A DNA stretch of 64,000 nucleotides from the IMG/VR virus record IMGVR_UViG_3300029935_000001, positions 32,001 to 96,000 of that record; one strand, 5' to 3'. Numbering within the stretch: position 1 is the first letter of the stretch; each line of letters opens with the position of its first letter. The position numbers and the translations under genes are program-made. The DNA is from a virus (taxonomy: Duplodnaviria; Heunggongvirae; Uroviricota; Caudoviricetes). This document shows, one piece after another, positions 9,761 to 13,832 of the stretch. Below the pieces are notes generated by a model. The model was not told where the DNA came from and ran no database searches. It worked only from the letters and a program-made list of their open reading frames with translations.

Positions 9761-9810
9761 ATACAGCAGAGTAGAGAGACTACTCACTATCTTATTCTAA
9801 GGAGCTTAGA

Positions 9811-10854
9811 GTGCCAAATAAATCATACGACGCCATCGTCTTCGTTGGCCGTTTTCAACCAGTCCACACGCAACACCTTGCCACCATGCGCCGAGCGCTG
9901 GAGCTCGCAGATCAACTCATTGTTGCTGTTGGGAGCTCTAACCGAGCCCGTAACATTCGCGACCCATGGACTTACGCTGAGCGCGTCTCGTTTATCTCTG
10001 CTAACTTTGCGCCGGAGGATCGTGCTCGCATTCGGTTCATTCCAGTTAAAGACCACCTCTACAATAACACACTGTGGGCAGCGCGGCTTACTGGCAGTAT
10101 CATGCAGGAAGTGGGCGATCGCAAGCGCATTGGCCTAATCGGCGCCGCCAAAGATGAGACCACGTTTTACCTCAACCTGTTCCCCACCTTCGAGCGCATT
10201 GACACACCGCTGGTCGCAGGCATTGACGCTACTCGAATTCGCGAAATTATCTTCGGCTACGGCCGCGGGATCGCCGACACCCAAGTCGGCGCGGTGCTCA
10301 CTGCTGCTACAGTCGAGGCCATTCTCCGGTGGAGCCGCAACAACGGCGAGGAGTTTGCGCGCATCACTCGTGAGCAGCTATTCCTCAGCCAGTACCGCGC
10401 AATGTGGGAAGTAGCCCCGTACCCTCCAACCTTTGTTACCGTTGACGCGGTTGTAACATGCGGCAATCACGTGCTCATGGTCGAGCGCAAAGCTGCGCCG
10501 GGCGAAGGGCTTATGGCGCTACCCGGAGGGTTCATCAACCCGAAAGAAACGCTCGAGGACGCTTGTATCCGCGAGCTACGCGAAGAAACCCGCCTCAAGG
10601 TACCTGCGCCAGTGATCCGCGGCTGTATCAAGAGCTCGCACGTTTTTGACCACCCACTTCGTAGCCTACGTGGCCGCACTATTACGCACGCGTACCACAT
10701 CCAGCTTAACGACACCGAGCTGCCGCGTGTCAAGGGCGGCGACGATGCGGCACGCGCCTTCTGGGTTCCGCTACACGAGATTGTAGAGCGGCAGACCGAG
10801 ATCTACGAAGACCACGCATTTATCATCGAATATTTCACCGGCGTCTCACTGTAA
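9811..10854 (+). CDS. nadM: bifunctional NMN adenylyltransferase / Nudix ADP-ribose hydrolase (NadM-Nudix, NatV-like)
   Basis: VGRFQPVH, GSSN, DATRIRE; Nudix box GGF..ETLEDACIRELREET; GGDDA; EDH. Confidence 0.92.
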   Translation: MPNKSYDAIVFVGRFQPVHTQHLATMRRALELADQLIVAVGSSNRARNIRDPWTYAERVSFISANFAPEDRARIRFIPVKDHLYNNTLWAARLTGSIMQEVGDRKRIGLIGAAKDETTFYLNLFPTFERIDTPLVAGIDATRIREIIFGYGRGIADTQVGAVLTAATVEAILRWSRNNGEEFARITREQLFLSQYRAMWEVAPYPPTFVTVDAVVTCGNHVLMVERKAAPGEGLMALPGGFINPKETLEDACIRELREETRLKVPAPVIRGCIKSSHVFDHPLRSLRGRTITHAYHIQLNDTELPRVKGGDDAARAFWVPLHEIVERQTEIYEDHAFIIEYFTGVSL

Positions 10855-10936
10855 CGGTAAATAGTATTACGCAGCAGGGGTTGCCGCACCTTAAGCCCAC
10901 TCTCCAGATGAGTGGCACACTGATAAGGAGTTTATC

Positions 10937-11647
10937 ATGAGCTTTAGCAAATCCATTCTATTCAACGTTGATTCCTATAAGGTTTCGATGAGCGAGCAGT
11001 ATCCGCCTAACACCACTGGGGTGTATAGCTACATCGAAGCACGAGGCGGACGTTTTGATCACACTGTATTCTTTGGCCTACAGGCATTTATCAAAGAATA
11101 CCTACTCAACCCTATTACCCAAGACGAGATTGATCTCGCTGCCGAACTGTATGCCGAGCACGGCGAGCCTTTTAACCGTGCTGGCTGGGAATACATCCTC
11201 GACCAGCACGGCGGACGTCTACCACTGCGTATCCGCGCAGTGCCCGAGGGCACTGTGGTGCCTATCAAGAACGTGCTTGTCACTGTGGAGAACACTGACC
11301 CAGCCGTTCCGTGGCTCACTACCTGGGCCGAAACCGCGATGCTGCGTGGCGTGTGGTACCCAACTACTGTAGCAACGCAGTCTTGGACTATCAAGCAAAT
11401 CATTCTCGACTACCTGGAGAAGACTGGTGACCCTTCTACTATCGGCTTTAAGCTACACGACTTTGGCGCTCGTGGTGTATCTAGTTGGGAAAGTGCTGGA
11501 ATTGGTGGTGCTGCGCACCTTGTCAACTTTCAAGGCACGGATACTGTTAGCAGCCTACTATTTGCTCGTAATTATTACAGTGCTCGGATGGCAGGATTTA
11601 GCATTCCTGCTAGTGAGCATTCTATTTCTTGCAGTTACGGTAAGTAA
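10937..11647 (+). CDS. nadV: nicotinamide phosphoribosyltransferase, N-terminal fragment
   Basis: DSYK, YIEAR, FFGLQ, WYPTTVAT, HDFGARG, GTDT, SEHS; TAA after SYGK. Confidence 0.9.
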   Translation: MSFSKSILFNVDSYKVSMSEQYPPNTTGVYSYIEARGGRFDHTVFFGLQAFIKEYLLNPITQDEIDLAAELYAEHGEPFNRAGWEYILDQHGGRLPLRIRAVPEGTVVPIKNVLVTVENTDPAVPWLTTWAETAMLRGVWYPTTVATQSWTIKQIILDYLEKTGDPSTIGFKLHDFGARGVSSWESAGIGGAAHLVNFQGTDTVSSLLFARNYYSARMAGFSIPASEHSISCSYGK

Positions 11648-11701
11648 ATATTGTTCTGTGGCAGAAATCGTATAAATGCACCGCGGAGAAGGGTGCGCTA
11701 T

Positions 11702-12844
11702 ATGTTTTATACGATTTACAAAATTACAAACAAAATTACAGGTCAAATTTATATCGGGCAACATATTACTGATGATTTAGATGACGGGTATATGGGGTCA
11801 GGCATAAGAATCACTAACTCTATTGCCAAGTATGGCAAGGATCGTTTTGATAAAGAAATTTTGTTTGTGTTTAACAACTTCGAAGACATGAACAAAAAAG
11901 AGTCGGAGTTGGTAAATGAAGATTTTATCAGGCGCCCAGACACACTTAATGTAGTGTTAGGCGGTACAGGATGGTGTACAAAAGGAACAGTGTCTGTTGA
12001 GAAGTTGTCAAACCCCGGAGTTTTTGTTAGAATACCTGTCGACCATTTTAACCCTGATATTTACAGATACCCAACATCCGACTCGGTGCAAGTTTATCTA
12101 AAAGCAACTGGCGAGAAATTTAGAGTAAGCACAGAGGAATATCAAAACAACAAAAATCTGTACAATGCAGTATCAACTGGCAAGGTATCGGTGAAGTGTA
12201 AAACGACTGGAAAAACATTGTCTATCCCTGTAGACGAATTTGATCCATCCTTTTATGAAAAGGTTTTAGGTGGCATTGTCGTAGAAAAAGATGGAAAACG
12301 ACAGTATGTAACAAAAGATGAATTTATCGCCGGTAATTTTAGTGGCCTGCATGTTGGAAAAATAACCGCATTCGACAAAGAGACTGGAAAGAGAAAACAC
12401 ATAACAAGAGAAGAATACTATAAAAATAAGGATAGATATCTCCCAAATGGGACCGGCACGGCTGTTGTTAAAGATAAGATAACCGGCAAGCGAACAAGAA
12501 TCCCATCCGTGATGATCGACCCATCACTGCACATCGTAGGAACAACCGGTTGGGCTACTGTATACGATATAACAGTGGGTAAATTTTTAAACATCCCAAA
12601 AGGAACGATTGACCGTAGTAAGCATAAGCGAGCTAACGATAAAAAGTTTATTTGTTATAACCCCAACGGATCTATTAGATTTGAATTCTGGGGCAGGAAA
12701 CAAGAGTTCTTGAAGCAATACAACTGTCCTGCTAGTGTCTGGGAAGCTGCGGTGAATAGTAAAACATTTACTTCAGATCGAGTAAAAAGCAAAGAATTTA
12801 ATGGGTGCAGGTTCGTACTCATTGATTGGAAGTCCCGAAGATAG
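11702..12844 (+). mobile_element. free-standing GIY-YIG (Seg-like) homing endonuclease inserted in nadV
   Basis: YTIYKITNKITGQIYIGQH...YMGSG; repeated GKVSV..KTTGK units; AT-rich. Confidence 0.85.
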
Positions 12845-12875
12845 ACTTCGGGCATTTTATTTTAAGGAGATTAAA

Positions 12876-13553
12876 ATGAGCGAAAGACAATATGCGTTGA
12901 ATATGATCGATAAATTTGCGAAACCCGGTGCTATTTTTGCAATGGTAGCAGATTCGTATGATGTTTTTAAGTTTTGTGAAATGTTAGGCTCCGACCCGGA
13001 AATAAAAGCTAAAATTAAAGCGCACGGTGCTACTGGTGGTTTTGTTGTTATTCGCCCCGACTCGGGCGATCCTGTTGAGGTTAACTGTAGATTGATCGAA
13101 ATTCTTGGCAAAAATTTCGGGTACACTGTTAACACAAAAGGGTTCAAAGTTCTCAACTATGTTCGCCTCATCCAAGGCGATGGAGTCAACGAATATACAG
13201 TCCGTGGCATCCTTGAAGCCTTTATGGCCGCCGGATGGAGTGCCGACAACGTGGCGTTTGGTATGGGCGGCGCCTTGCTTGGTGCGCCACAACGCGATGA
13301 CCAAAAATGGGCTATGAAGTGCTCGGCGGCTAAGATCGATGGTGTGTGGGTGCCTGTGCAGAAGGACCCAGTCACCGACTCGGGCAAGCGTAGCAAGGCT
13401 GGACGCGTGACACTGTTCCGAGACCGGGATGGCCAGTACCGCAGCGGTGTTGAAGATTGGGAGCAAGACGCTCTGCAGACGGTGTTTGAAAACGGTCGCC
13501 TGCTAGTTGACGACTCTTTTGACGCGATTCGTGCTCGCAGCAATCAGCGATAA
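12876..13553 (+). CDS. nadV: nicotinamide phosphoribosyltransferase, C-terminal fragment
   Basis: own AAGGAG SD and ATG; VADSYD, IRPDSGDP, IQGDG, FGMGG, RD, AMKCS, KDPVTD..KRSK. Confidence 0.9.
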   Translation: MSERQYALNMIDKFAKPGAIFAMVADSYDVFKFCEMLGSDPEIKAKIKAHGATGGFVVIRPDSGDPVEVNCRLIEILGKNFGYTVNTKGFKVLNYVRLIQGDGVNEYTVRGILEAFMAAGWSADNVAFGMGGALLGAPQRDDQKWAMKCSAAKIDGVWVPVQKDPVTDSGKRSKAGRVTLFRDRDGQYRSGVEDWEQDALQTVFENGRLLVDDSFDAIRARSNQR

Positions 13554-13556
13554 CCG

Positions 13557-13585
13557 TTGACAACGCTCCACTGGACTAGTATAAT
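13557..13585 (+). promoter_or_regulatory. sigma70 early promoter
   Basis: TTGACA-17-TATAAT. Confidence 0.85.
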
Positions 13586-13613
13586 AACAACATACTACGC
13601 AGTGGAGCTAATC

Positions 13614-13832
13614 ATGAATGCCTGGCAGTTCCTTCGAGACCTCGACACAGTGTGTCAATTCCAAACGCGCGAAGGCAAGCGAGTCGGTAAGGCGTCAGCC
13701 TCTGAGCTCAAGCGCTGGCTCCAAAATGGCGCTATGGTAGTGAATGGTGAGAAGGTAGCGTGGGACGAGCCCATGGACTTTCCTATCATTTCTATTGTGC
13801 TGTTCCCCAAGAACCCCATCACTCTTTTCTAA
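13614..13832 (+). CDS. small protein resembling an S4 RNA-binding domain
   Basis: SASELKRWLQNGAMVVNGEKV resembles the S4 alphaL motif; GGAG SD. Confidence 0.55.
   Translation: MNAWQFLRDLDTVCQFQTREGKRVGKASASELKRWLQNGAMVVNGEKVAWDEPMDFPIISIVLFPKNPITLF

What the first reader, a model, noticed from the sequence alone, without database searches (positions are those of the whole stretch)
10937..13553. NAMPT split at its active site by an intron-less GIY-YIG endonuclease into two separately translated halves
Seen: the N-half ends ...IPASEHSISCSYGK-TAA. The C-half starts MSERQYALNMIDKFAKPG... with its own AAGGAG SD. Together 236+225 aa join with essentially no lost residues relative to the usual EHS..SWG..E..AY.NM pattern. 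Non-coding flanks around the endonuclease are only about 54 and 31 nt, too short for a group I core, and there is no intein. Known: the EHS His is the catalytic phospho-His of NAMPT, while DSYD/RPDSG/GDG motifs lie downstream; the Aeh1 nrdA/mobE case shows such splits can give functional heteromers. Inference: a naturally split NAMPT with a composite active site, in an enzyme phages use to rebuild NAD+.
Basis: partly seen in the sequence, partly recalled or inferred. Interest (0 to 1): 0.8.

Follow-up and report, generated by a model that had tools for sequence, protein, structure and literature searches.

The report
Phage NAMPT split by mobile endonuclease
In this 323-kb phage the NAD-salvage enzyme gene nadV (NAMPT) is cut into two separately translated halves by a selfish endonuclease gene, and the same cassette sits at the same codon in many unrelated phage nadV genes with both halves kept under selection, so it is very probably a working two-piece enzyme.

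Summary
nadV-N (10937-11647, 236 aa) is followed by a 54-nt spacer, a Seg-type GIY-YIG endonuclease gene (11702-12844, 380 aa), a 31-nt spacer with AAGGAG, then nadV-C (12876-13553, 225 aa). The halves abut with no residue lost or added against 77 intact homologues. No intron, intein or tails were found.

The break is 8 residues after the catalytic His (H228 = human H247), at the start of a helix.

New here:
- The arrangement is not unique. Five further metagenomic lineages share the same architecture, and about 75 half-length proteins lie in the two top-120 hit lists.
- Catalytic residues are invariant, and dN/dS is about 0.14-0.24 in the cassette-borne part.
- The endonuclease travels with its own recoded nadV patch of about 8 + 56 codons.
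- The patch forms one clade, while the gene backbones are polyphyletic (AU p = 0.0004).
- One filled allele is 80-97% identical in DNA to intact alleles outside the patch.

My reading is a functional genes-in-pieces NAMPT, spread by intron-less homing. It is a new member of the Aeh1 nrdA/mobE kind. Activity of the halves is inferred, not shown.

The scan has noted other endonuclease-disrupted nadV genes on other DNA; I did not check those notes.

The parts
9811..10854 (+). natV: bifunctional NMN adenylyltransferase / Nudix hydrolase. It lies upstream of nadV on the same strand and is the partner enzyme of the two-step NAD salvage pathway (NARP2-type).
   Evidence: Pfam CTP_transf_like 1.8e-10 and NUDIX 5.2e-20. 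The same natV-nadV adjacency is annotated in ACP17.
10937..11647 (+). nadV-N: N-terminal half of NAMPT, 236 aa, ending in TAA. It carries Y14, F176/R179, D202 and H228, which correspond to human Y18, F193/R196, D219 and H247.
   Evidence: These residues are invariant in 25 split N-halves.
11430..13115 (.). Low-GC tract: about 0.36-0.45 GC and GC3 0.2-0.4, against GC3 0.6-0.7 in the rest of nadV. It covers roughly the last 70 codons of nadV-N, the endonuclease gene and roughly the first 80 codons of nadV-C. I read it as the imported (co-converted) DNA in this genome; the edges are approximate.
   Evidence: Composition profile; GC3 in 15-codon windows.
11620..11647 (+). Upstream arm of the cassette-borne nadV patch: the recoded codons for ...SEHSISCSYGK plus the TAA stop.
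   Evidence: In L006, homology to intact alleles L032/L019 ends about 25 nt before the N-half stop. All split alleles differ from the intact consensus at these positions.
11648..11701 (+). 54-nt spacer. It holds a conserved TGTTCTGTGGCAGAAAT element (11652-11668), a TATAAATG motif (11671-11678) that resembles a T4 late promoter, and a GGAG-rich SD for the endonuclease (11685-11693).
   Evidence: Spacers of WIN, L006 and L047 compared. The function of the motifs is inferred only.
11702..12844 (+). Free-standing Seg-type GIY-YIG homing endonuclease gene, 380 aa.
   Evidence: phrog_314 homing endonuclease 1.3e-32. Pfam SegE_GIY-YIG scores 24.4 bits, just under the 25-bit cut-off. There is 52% identity to T4-type SegD over residues 1-106. 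It is full length, with 134 invariant columns across five lineages.
12834..12852 (+). Hairpin of 7 bp with an invariant ATAGA loop. It overlaps the endonuclease stop and is followed by a T-run (12853-12863), so it looks like a terminator. It lies directly before the SD of nadV-C.
   Evidence: Terminator scan. Three of seven pairs covary among five lineages. Folding gives -15.2 kcal/mol, z = -3.6.
12864..12869 (+). AAGGAG Shine-Dalgarno of nadV-C, 6 nt before the ATG.
   Evidence: AAAGGAG is conserved in L006, L047, L093 and L092.
12876..13553 (+). nadV-C: C-terminal half of NAMPT, 225 aa. It carries R60/D62, G101-D102-G103, G131-G132, R140 and K148, which correspond to human R311/D313, G353-D354-G355, G383-G384, R392 and K400.
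   Evidence: These residues are invariant or nearly so in 25 split C-halves. In the AF2 model, residues 1-130 average pLDDT above 90 and the first helix spans residues 3-14.
12876..13052 (+). Downstream arm of the cassette-borne nadV patch: the first ~56-59 codons of nadV-C, ending just before VIRPDSGDP. It includes a cassette-specific TGG insertion.
   Evidence: All split C-halves share this block. It forms one clade against 77 intact alleles. L006 homology to intact alleles resumes 168 nt into its C-half.

Best explanation
A free-standing Seg-type GIY-YIG homing endonuclease gene sits inside the phage's only nadV gene. It turns nadV into two genes whose products most likely assemble non-covalently into an active NAMPT. 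The catalytic His and the nicotinamide-side residues lie on the 236-aa chain; the PRPP/ribose-phosphate motifs lie on the 225-aa chain.

The endonuclease is part of a cassette. The cassette brings:
- the stop codon for the N-half;
- its own expression signals;
- an SD and ATG for the C-half;
- a recoded 'private' version of about 8 + 56 nadV codons around the insertion point.

I infer that the enzyme cuts intact nadV alleles in the conserved EHS...WGRE region during co-infection. Repair from the cassette-bearing genome would then copy the endonuclease gene together with the recoded patch, with crossover in the next well-conserved stretch, which encodes RPDSGDP. That leaves the recipient immune to further cutting and still able to make NMN.

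Shown here: the anatomy, the absence of an intron or intein, the recurrence, the mosaic structure, the single origin of the patch against polyphyletic backbones, and the purifying selection. Inferred: cleavage specificity, heteromer assembly and enzyme activity.
For: Anatomy and seamless join. This is the only nadV in the complete 323-kb genome.

The same N-half | GIY-YIG | C-half architecture occurs in five further lineages, with endonuclease identity to the window of 45-72%: L006/L007/L005, L047, L040 with four identical loci, L093, and the partial L092. All have intact ORFs, the N-half ending ...PASEHS..S.GK-TAA, and the C-half starting MSE(K/R).Y. In the L040 lineage the endonuclease stop overlaps the C-half ATG (ATGA), which indicates co-transcription and translational coupling.

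The protein database holds about 35 C-halves and about 40 N-halves of the right length within the two top-120 lists. Several pairs appear to lie on the same long contigs, up to 308 kb, judged by matching contig lengths.

Catalytic residues are invariant across 25 + 25 split halves that are only 52-75% identical.

In the cassette-borne nadV patch, pS is 0.58-0.87 (saturated) and pN is 0.13-0.30. dN/dS is 0.14-0.24 where it can be computed.

Filled versus empty site: L006 is 80-97% identical in DNA to intact L032/L019, except for codons ~228-290. There identity drops to 30-60% against the intact alleles but is 70-93% against the window's cassette. In total, 1424 nt replace 181 nt.

On the backbone tree the split alleles need 4 changes, and monophyly is rejected (delta lnL 299, p-AU 0.0004). 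On the 66-column patch they form one clade with SH-aLRT 95.

The low GC/GC3 tract in the window spans the endonuclease gene and both adjacent nadV ends.
Against: - No biochemical or expression data exist; heteromer formation and activity are inferred from conservation only.
- A terminator-like hairpin lies between the endonuclease gene and the C-half SD. The C-half must depend on read-through, and its expression level is unknown.
- Synonymous sites are saturated, so the dN/dS values are rough.
- In the AF2 single-chain model of the N-half, residues 172-178 and 221-236 have pLDDT below 50. That fits dependence on a partner but would also fit a poorly folding fragment.
- No split allele lacking the endonuclease was seen. 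Long-term stability of the split without the endonuclease is therefore untested.
Confidence: 0.75

Rival explanations
1. Pseudogene: the endonuclease insertion inactivated nadV, and the two ORFs are decaying remnants tolerated because the host supplies NAD.
For: A gene interrupted by a selfish element is often dead. The terminator-like hairpin before the C-half could silence it. The isolated N-half is modelled poorly at its C-terminus.
Against: Both ORFs are intact in six lineages whose endonucleases are only 45-72% identical to the window's. All catalytic residues are invariant in 50 split halves. The patch that exists only in the split state shows pN well below pS. The SD and ATG are conserved, and one lineage has ATGA coupling. 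There is no second nadV in the genome.
Confidence: 0.08
2. The gene is restored after transcription or translation, by a degenerate group I intron, an intein or split intein, or ribosomal bypassing, so a full-length NAMPT is made.
For: nadV does host a true group I intron at another codon (178/179) in phage contig L087. 'Fractured genes' with split inteins flanking an endonuclease gene are known (PMC2677866).
Against: A permissive Rfam scan of 11300-13300 finds no intron. Only 54 and 31 nt are non-coding. The halves end and begin exactly at adjacent residues of intact homologues, leaving no room for intein blocks, and Pfam finds no Hint domain. The TAA stop and the SD+ATG are conserved at the junction. 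A 1.2-kb bypass has no precedent.
Confidence: 0.03
3. The split is functional, but the endonuclease is no longer an active homing enzyme: it is domesticated or inert. On this view the mosaic pattern comes from ordinary homologous recombination between co-infecting phages, not from endonuclease-driven gene conversion.
For: Phage genomes are highly mosaic anyway. No cleavage data exist. The cassettes are old, with endonuclease identity down to 45%, so much of their history could be vertical.
Against: The endonuclease ORF is full length with conserved GIY-YIG core residues in all lineages. The exchanged block is centred exactly on the endonuclease gene. Its edges lie in the flanking nadV sequence of otherwise near-identical filled and empty alleles. 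At least three independent backbone associations are forced by well-supported branches.
Confidence: 0.12

Closest known systems
Aeromonas phage Aeh1 nrdA-a / mobE / nrdA-b, the genes-in-pieces ribonucleotide reductase (Crona et al. 2010, PMC3045599; the original Friedrich et al. 2007 description is cited from memory)
   Same: A free-standing homing endonuclease gene lies inside a metabolic enzyme gene and splits it into two separately translated ORFs near the active site. There is no intron or intein, and function is retained through non-covalent assembly.
   Different: The target is NAMPT, not RNR, and the endonuclease is a GIY-YIG Seg type rather than the HNH-type MobE. In Aeh1, short tails created by the insertion are essential for assembly (abstract of PMC3045599); here the halves carry no extra residues at all. 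Here the split is a large natural family on polyphyletic backbones, not a single phage.
T4 Seg (GIY-YIG) endonucleases and intron-less homing with co-conversion of flanking markers (review PMC2988022). Nuclease genes at boundaries of genetic exchange (PMC10448857; abstract only seen).
   Same: The catalytic domain is most similar to SegD/SegE-type proteins. The gene is free-standing with its own start. Imported flanking DNA surrounds it.
   Different: Seg genes normally lie between genes; this one lies inside a coding sequence. The C-terminal ~280 residues are shared by only about 40 clusters at 50% identity. Cleavage has not been tested.
'Fractured genes': split inteins flanking a free-standing endonuclease gene (Dassa et al. 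2009, PMC2677866)
   Same: A host gene lies in two pieces with an endonuclease gene between them, and the arrangement was found mainly in metagenomes.
   Different: There are no intein halves. The pieces end and start at adjacent residues of the intact protein, so no protein splicing can be involved.
Vibrio phage KVP40 NadV + NatV, now called NARP2 (bioRxiv 10.1101/2024.02.11.579819)
   Same: The same two-enzyme pathway, NAMPT plus NMNAT/Nudix, is encoded by adjacent phage genes. In that work NARP2 rebuilt NAD+ and countered NAD-depleting defence systems.
   Different: KVP40 NadV is a single polypeptide. Whether the two-piece enzyme supports counter-defence is untested.
Felix O1-like phages with nrdD interrupted by a homing endonuclease gene (PMC4837284)
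   Same: Another phage nucleotide-metabolism gene reported as split by an endonuclease gene.
   Different: It is a different gene and endonuclease. Earlier notes of this scan attribute those cases to self-splicing introns, which I did not check.

Membership tests
NAMPT / NadV (Pfam PF18127 + PF04095) | NAMPT_N domain followed by a complete NAPRTase-family catalytic domain | tested here: met
   NAMPT_N scores 2.9e-27. The NAPRTase profile is covered at positions 1-59 by the N-half and 66-238 by the C-half. PDB NAMPT chains match at 1.6e-84 and 5.8e-65.
NAMPT / NadV (Pfam PF18127 + PF04095) | Catalytic His (human H247) and the PRPP/ribose-phosphate motifs RPDSG, GDG and GxGG, plus R392 and K400 | tested here: met
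   H228 is on the N-half. R60/D62, G101-D102-G103, G131-G132, R140 and K148 are on the C-half, by alignment to mammalian NAMPT. They are invariant in split relatives. The functional roles of these residues are from my own knowledge of human NAMPT.
NAMPT / NadV (Pfam PF18127 + PF04095) | Single polypeptide of about 460-490 aa | tested here: not met
   There are two ORFs of 236 and 225 aa, separated by 1228 nt.
NAMPT / NadV (Pfam PF18127 + PF04095) | NMN synthesis from nicotinamide and PRPP | not testable with these tools
   This needs an enzyme assay of the co-expressed halves.
Free-standing GIY-YIG (Seg-type) homing endonuclease | GIY-YIG catalytic domain | tested here: met
   phrog_314 scores 1.3e-32 over residues 1-97, and there is 52-63% identity to annotated SegD and other homing endonucleases. 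The core motifs TIY...IYIGQH, GYMGSG, and the conserved E and N are invariant in five lineages. Pfam SegE_GIY-YIG alone is marginal: 24.4 bits against a 25-bit cut-off.
Free-standing GIY-YIG (Seg-type) homing endonuclease | Presence/absence polymorphism at one site between otherwise similar genomes (mobility) | tested here: met
   L006 (filled) versus L032/L019 (empty) are 80-97% identical in DNA outside the cassette. The backbones are polyphyletic.
Free-standing GIY-YIG (Seg-type) homing endonuclease | Site-specific cleavage of the endonuclease-less allele and resistance of the endonuclease-bearing allele | not testable with these tools
   The only evidence is indirect. The split alleles differ from the intact consensus at most positions between the EH codons and the insertion point.
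Group I intron-encoded endonuclease | Group I ribozyme core flanking the ORF | tested here: not met
   No Intron_gpI hit up to E = 10 in 11300-13300. The flanks are 54 and 31 nt. As a positive control, the L087 nadV intron scores 61.3 bits.
Intein or split-intein 'fractured gene' | Hint/intein blocks at the ends of the gene pieces | tested here: not met
   There is no Pfam intein domain. The pieces end and start on adjacent residues of intact homologues.
Genes-in-pieces (Aeh1 nrdA/mobE type) | Enzyme gene divided by a free-standing endonuclease gene into two independently translated ORFs that are retained by selection | tested here: met
Genes-in-pieces (Aeh1 nrdA/mobE type) | Insertion-derived tails that mediate assembly | tested here: not met
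   The main class has no added residues. Some relatives have 1-6 extra C-terminal residues, or a 15-residue read-on tail.
NARP2 (phage NAMPT + NMNAT NAD+ reconstitution pathway) | Nampt gene together with an Nmnat gene in the same phage | tested here: met
   natV (9811-10854; CTP_transf_like + NUDIX) lies directly upstream of nadV-N. The definition is from 10.1101/2024.02.11.579819. Counter-defence activity was not tested.

The most novel reading that the evidence does not exclude
The recoded ~64-codon nadV patch is not just hitch-hiking donor DNA. It would be an evolved 'repair kit' belonging to the endonuclease cassette, supplying a stop, an SD/ATG and an altered protein segment (FAMVADSY..FKFCEMLG..TGG) tuned so that the two chains assemble without tails. 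That would let a selfish endonuclease colonise the interior of a beneficial gene in many unrelated phages without an intron or intein. It would be the protein-gene counterpart of the tRNA- and thyA-replacement cassettes noted elsewhere in this same genome.
Probability: 0.4. Interest if true: 0.7.

Novelty: new member of a known kind. Interest (0 to 1): 0.55.

Why it matters
NAMPT plus NMNAT is the phage NARP2 pathway, which rebuilds NAD+ and defeats NAD-depleting defence systems (10.1101/2024.02.11.579819).

This finding adds NAMPT to the very short list of enzymes known to survive being cut in two by a homing endonuclease. I found no report of a split nadV in the paper library. No cultured phage in the 50,697-record collection carries the cassette patch; the best match is 54% identity.

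Unlike the single Aeh1 case, this is a natural family of dozens of diverged variants with matched intact alleles. That makes several questions directly testable:
- How two fragments of an alpha/beta-barrel active site assemble without added interaction tails.
- What the endonuclease recognises.
- How far gene conversion extends.

It also matters for annotation. Half-length 'nicotinamide phosphoribosyltransferase' calls in metagenomes are not necessarily fragments or pseudogenes.

Tried and rejected
- Megablast of 10800-13700 against GenBank phages gave no match.
- A group I or II intron was rejected: the permissive Rfam scan found nothing.
- Intein or split intein was rejected: no domain and no extra residues.
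- A second intact nadV in the genome was rejected: none is present.
- The longer C-half ORF starting at ATG 12801 was rejected. The upstream extension does not match NAMPT and is not open in the other lineages, which all start at MSE behind AAAGGAG.
- Read-through fusion of the N-half to the endonuclease was rejected as a mechanism. The two are in the same frame in the window, but not in L047, L040 or L093, and a stop intervenes in L006.
- The metagenome-contig scan with the patch alignment gave only 4 loci, and genome contigs gave none.
The contexts of the ~75 half-length proteins could therefore not be read, and endonuclease-less split alleles could not be sought.
- A search for the alternative C-half type (P0023) in IMG/VR appears to have returned only intact-type alleles; one hit is the L013 contig, and the contexts of the others were not read.
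- The halves could not be folded as a complex. Single-chain AF2 models give only secondary structure and confidence.
Full report
**What is there.** On the + strand the window carries five features in order:
- natV at 9811-10854.
- nadV-N at 10937-11647, 236 aa, ending ...IPASEHSISCSYGK-TAA.
- A 54-nt spacer, then a 380-aa ORF from ATG 11702 to TAG 12844.
- A 31-nt spacer containing AAGGAG (12864-12869).
- nadV-C at 12876-13553, 225 aa, starting MSERQYALNM.

**Domain assignments.**
- natV is NMNAT + Nudix by Pfam.
- The N-half matches NAMPT_N plus NAPRTase profile positions 1-59, and the C-half matches positions 66-238.
- The middle ORF is a Seg-type GIY-YIG homing endonuclease. It scores 1.3e-32 against phrog_314, 24.4 bits against Pfam SegE_GIY-YIG (cut-off 25), and is up to 52-63% identical to annotated SegD and other homing endonucleases over its first ~100 residues.
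- The window is bases 32001-96000 of a complete 323,407-bp phage genome with terminal repeats. This is its only nadV.
- A MoxR-like ATPase nearby is 50% identical to that of PA5oct-type jumbo Pseudomonas phages, so cultured relatives are distant.

**The join is seamless.** In Acidovorax phage ACP17 the N-half match ends at base 113991 and residue 2 of the C-half starts at 113995. In the alignment, SYGK lines up with SWGR and MSERQYALNM with EHEKDAYANM. In 70 of the 77 intact IMG/VR alleles the two queries abut with a corrected gap of 0, and the rest differ by 3-12 nt.

**Where the break falls.**
- Against mammalian NAMPT chains, H228 aligns with H247 and the last residue, K236, with K255. The break is therefore 8 residues after the catalytic His.
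- The C-half carries the equivalents of R311/D313, G353-D354-G355, G383-G384, R392 and K400. The roles of these residues come from my knowledge of human NAMPT.
- In the AF2 model of the C-half, the first helix begins at residue 3 and residues 1-130 are confident.
- The isolated N-half is confident up to about residue 140, but residues 172-178 and 221-236 fall below pLDDT 50. That fits a barrel segment needing its partner, but it proves nothing.

**Not an intron or intein.**
- A permissive Rfam scan of 11300-13300 finds no intron.
- The same library finds a group I intron at 61.3 bits in nadV of contig L087, at codon 178/179. That site is the single most conserved nucleotide stretch of the gene. 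L050 has an HNH-type ORF at the same place.
- The method can therefore see nadV introns, and the window has none.
- The halves carry no extra residues, and Pfam finds no Hint domain.

**It is a family, not a one-off.**
- A length-restricted search with the C-half returned many ~225-aa proteins on long contigs of up to 308 kb. They all start MSE(K/R)(K/Q)Y..NM.
- The N-half search returned about 40 proteins that stop within a few residues of ...PASEHS..S.GK. Several have the same longest-contig length as a C-half hit, which suggests both halves lie on one contig.
- One 90% cluster alone has 24 members seen on more than 50 contigs.
- DNA contexts could be read for five further lineages: L006/L007/L005; L047; L040 with four identical loci; L093; and the partial L092.
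- Every one of these shows N-half, TAA, a homologous full-length GIY-YIG gene (45-72% identical to the window's) and C-half behind AAAGGAG. In L040 the endonuclease stop instead overlaps the C-half ATG as ATGA.

**Evidence that the halves are functional.**
- Across 25 split C-halves (52-73% identical) and 25 split N-halves (60-75% identical), all catalytic positions listed above are invariant or nearly so.
- Between lineages synonymous sites are saturated, with pS 0.58-0.87.
- In the nadV segment found only in the split state, pN is 0.13-0.30. dN/dS is 0.14-0.24 where it can be computed.
- These are not decaying remnants.

**The endonuclease travels with a recoded patch of nadV.**
- The first ~59 residues of all split C-halves, and the last ~8 of the N-halves, share cassette-specific features: PASEHSIS rather than PAAEHSTIT, FAMVADSY..FKFCEMLG, and a TGG insertion.
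- The filled allele L006 is 80-97% identical in DNA to the intact alleles L032/L019 along the gene, except at codons ~228-290.
- In that stretch, identity to the intact alleles falls to 30-60%, but identity to the window's cassette is 70-93%.
- By BLAST, 1424 nt in L006 replace 181 nt of L032.
- On a backbone tree (311 columns, 81 alleles) each split allele groups with different intact alleles. The tree needs four changes, at least three of them forced by well-supported branches.
- Holding the split alleles together costs 299 lnL units (p-AU 0.0004).
- On the 66 patch columns the four split alleles form one clade with SH-aLRT 95.
- In the window itself, GC falls to 0.36-0.45 and GC3 to 0.2-0.4 from about 11430 to 13115. 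That covers the endonuclease gene and both adjacent nadV ends, against GC3 0.6-0.7 elsewhere in the gene.
- This is the signature of intron-less homing with co-conversion. The crossover appears to lie at the next well-conserved stretch, RPDSGDP, which is among the four most conserved 24-nt windows of the gene.

**Likely target site (inference).** Intact alleles are well conserved from the CCNGCNGCNGARCAY codons (PAAEH) to TGGGGNCGNGA (WGRE) at the insertion point. All split alleles are recoded at most of the intervening positions.

**Expression signals.**
- The 54-nt spacer holds a conserved TGTTCTGTGGCAGAAAT element and a (T/C)ATAAAT(A/G) motif that resembles a T4 late promoter, about 25 nt before the endonuclease ATG. 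The promoter function is speculative.
- A 7-bp hairpin with an invariant ATAGA loop overlaps the endonuclease stop. Three of its pairs covary among five lineages, and a T-run follows it.
- The hairpin looks like a terminator, yet the C-half SD lies 11 nt further on. The C-half must therefore be translated from read-through transcripts. This is unexplained and is the main weak point of the functional reading.

**Comparison with known systems.**
- The closest system is the Aeh1 nrdA-a/mobE/nrdA-b genes-in-pieces reductase. There, insertion-derived tails are essential for assembly (PMC3045599). Here there are no tails, the endonuclease is of a different family, and the arrangement is widespread on polyphyletic backbones.
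- It is not a 'fractured gene' with split inteins (PMC2677866).
- The pathway is NARP2, shown to counter NAD-depleting defences (10.1101/2024.02.11.579819).
- I found no paper describing a split nadV.
- No cultured phage carries the patch.
- Earlier notes of this scan mention two other endonuclease-disrupted nadV genes on other DNA, and replacement cassettes for tRNAs and thyA in this same genome. I did not test those notes.

**Verdict.** This is a new member of a known kind. Interest is moderate to high, because it offers a large natural series for studying how an enzyme survives fragmentation by a selfish element.

Noticed in passing
L087:4306-4590 and L050:4351-6672: Other phage contigs have nadV interrupted at a different place, codon 178/179 (KLHDFGA|RG), which is the most conserved nucleotide stretch of the gene. 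L087 has an Rfam group I intron there (61.3 bits). L050 has a 214-aa HNH-type ORF in a ~915-nt insert, with no canonical start codon for the downstream part, so it is probably also an intron. nadV is a repeated target of mobile elements.
   Followed up: partly
window 12834-12863 (also L006, L047, L093, L092): A conserved 7-bp hairpin with an invariant ATAGA loop and three covarying pairs overlaps the endonuclease stop codon. A T-run follows it, immediately before the SD of nadV-C. A second weak AU-only hairpin could present the SD in its loop. It looks like a terminator, but the C-half lies downstream, and the L040 lineage lacks it and uses an ATGA overlap instead. Its function is unknown.
   Followed up: partly
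window 12836-12844: In the related cassettes the endonuclease ORF stops at TGA, TAG or TAA inside the 5' arm of the hairpin. In the window that codon is CGA, so the ORF runs two codons further to the TAG in the hairpin loop.
   Followed up: yes
proteins P0144-P0146, P0153, P0154, P0180; P0023, P0073: A second class of split N-halves (251 aa) lacks the TAA and reads on as ...SY(S/A)AIPTINISKDCSVAEV. CSVAE is the conserved spacer element TGTTCTGTGGCAGAA read in another frame. A different C-half type starts MK..NELAYIKQMLKFLD.. instead of MSEK... This suggests at least one further cassette family near the same site. The contexts could not be fetched.
   Followed up: partly
window 11645-11704: nadV-N and the endonuclease ORF are in the same reading frame, separated by a single TAA and 18 sense codons. 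Stop read-through would therefore give an N-half-endonuclease fusion. This is not conserved in the other lineages, so it is probably coincidence.
   Followed up: yes
window 13557-13585: A perfect sigma-70 consensus (TTGACA-17-TATAAT, 12 of 12) lies 4 nt after the nadV-C stop, facing the next small ORFs.
   Followed up: no
window 9769-9785 and 10869-10889: Hairpins also precede natV and nadV-N, but their sequences differ from each other.
   Followed up: partly
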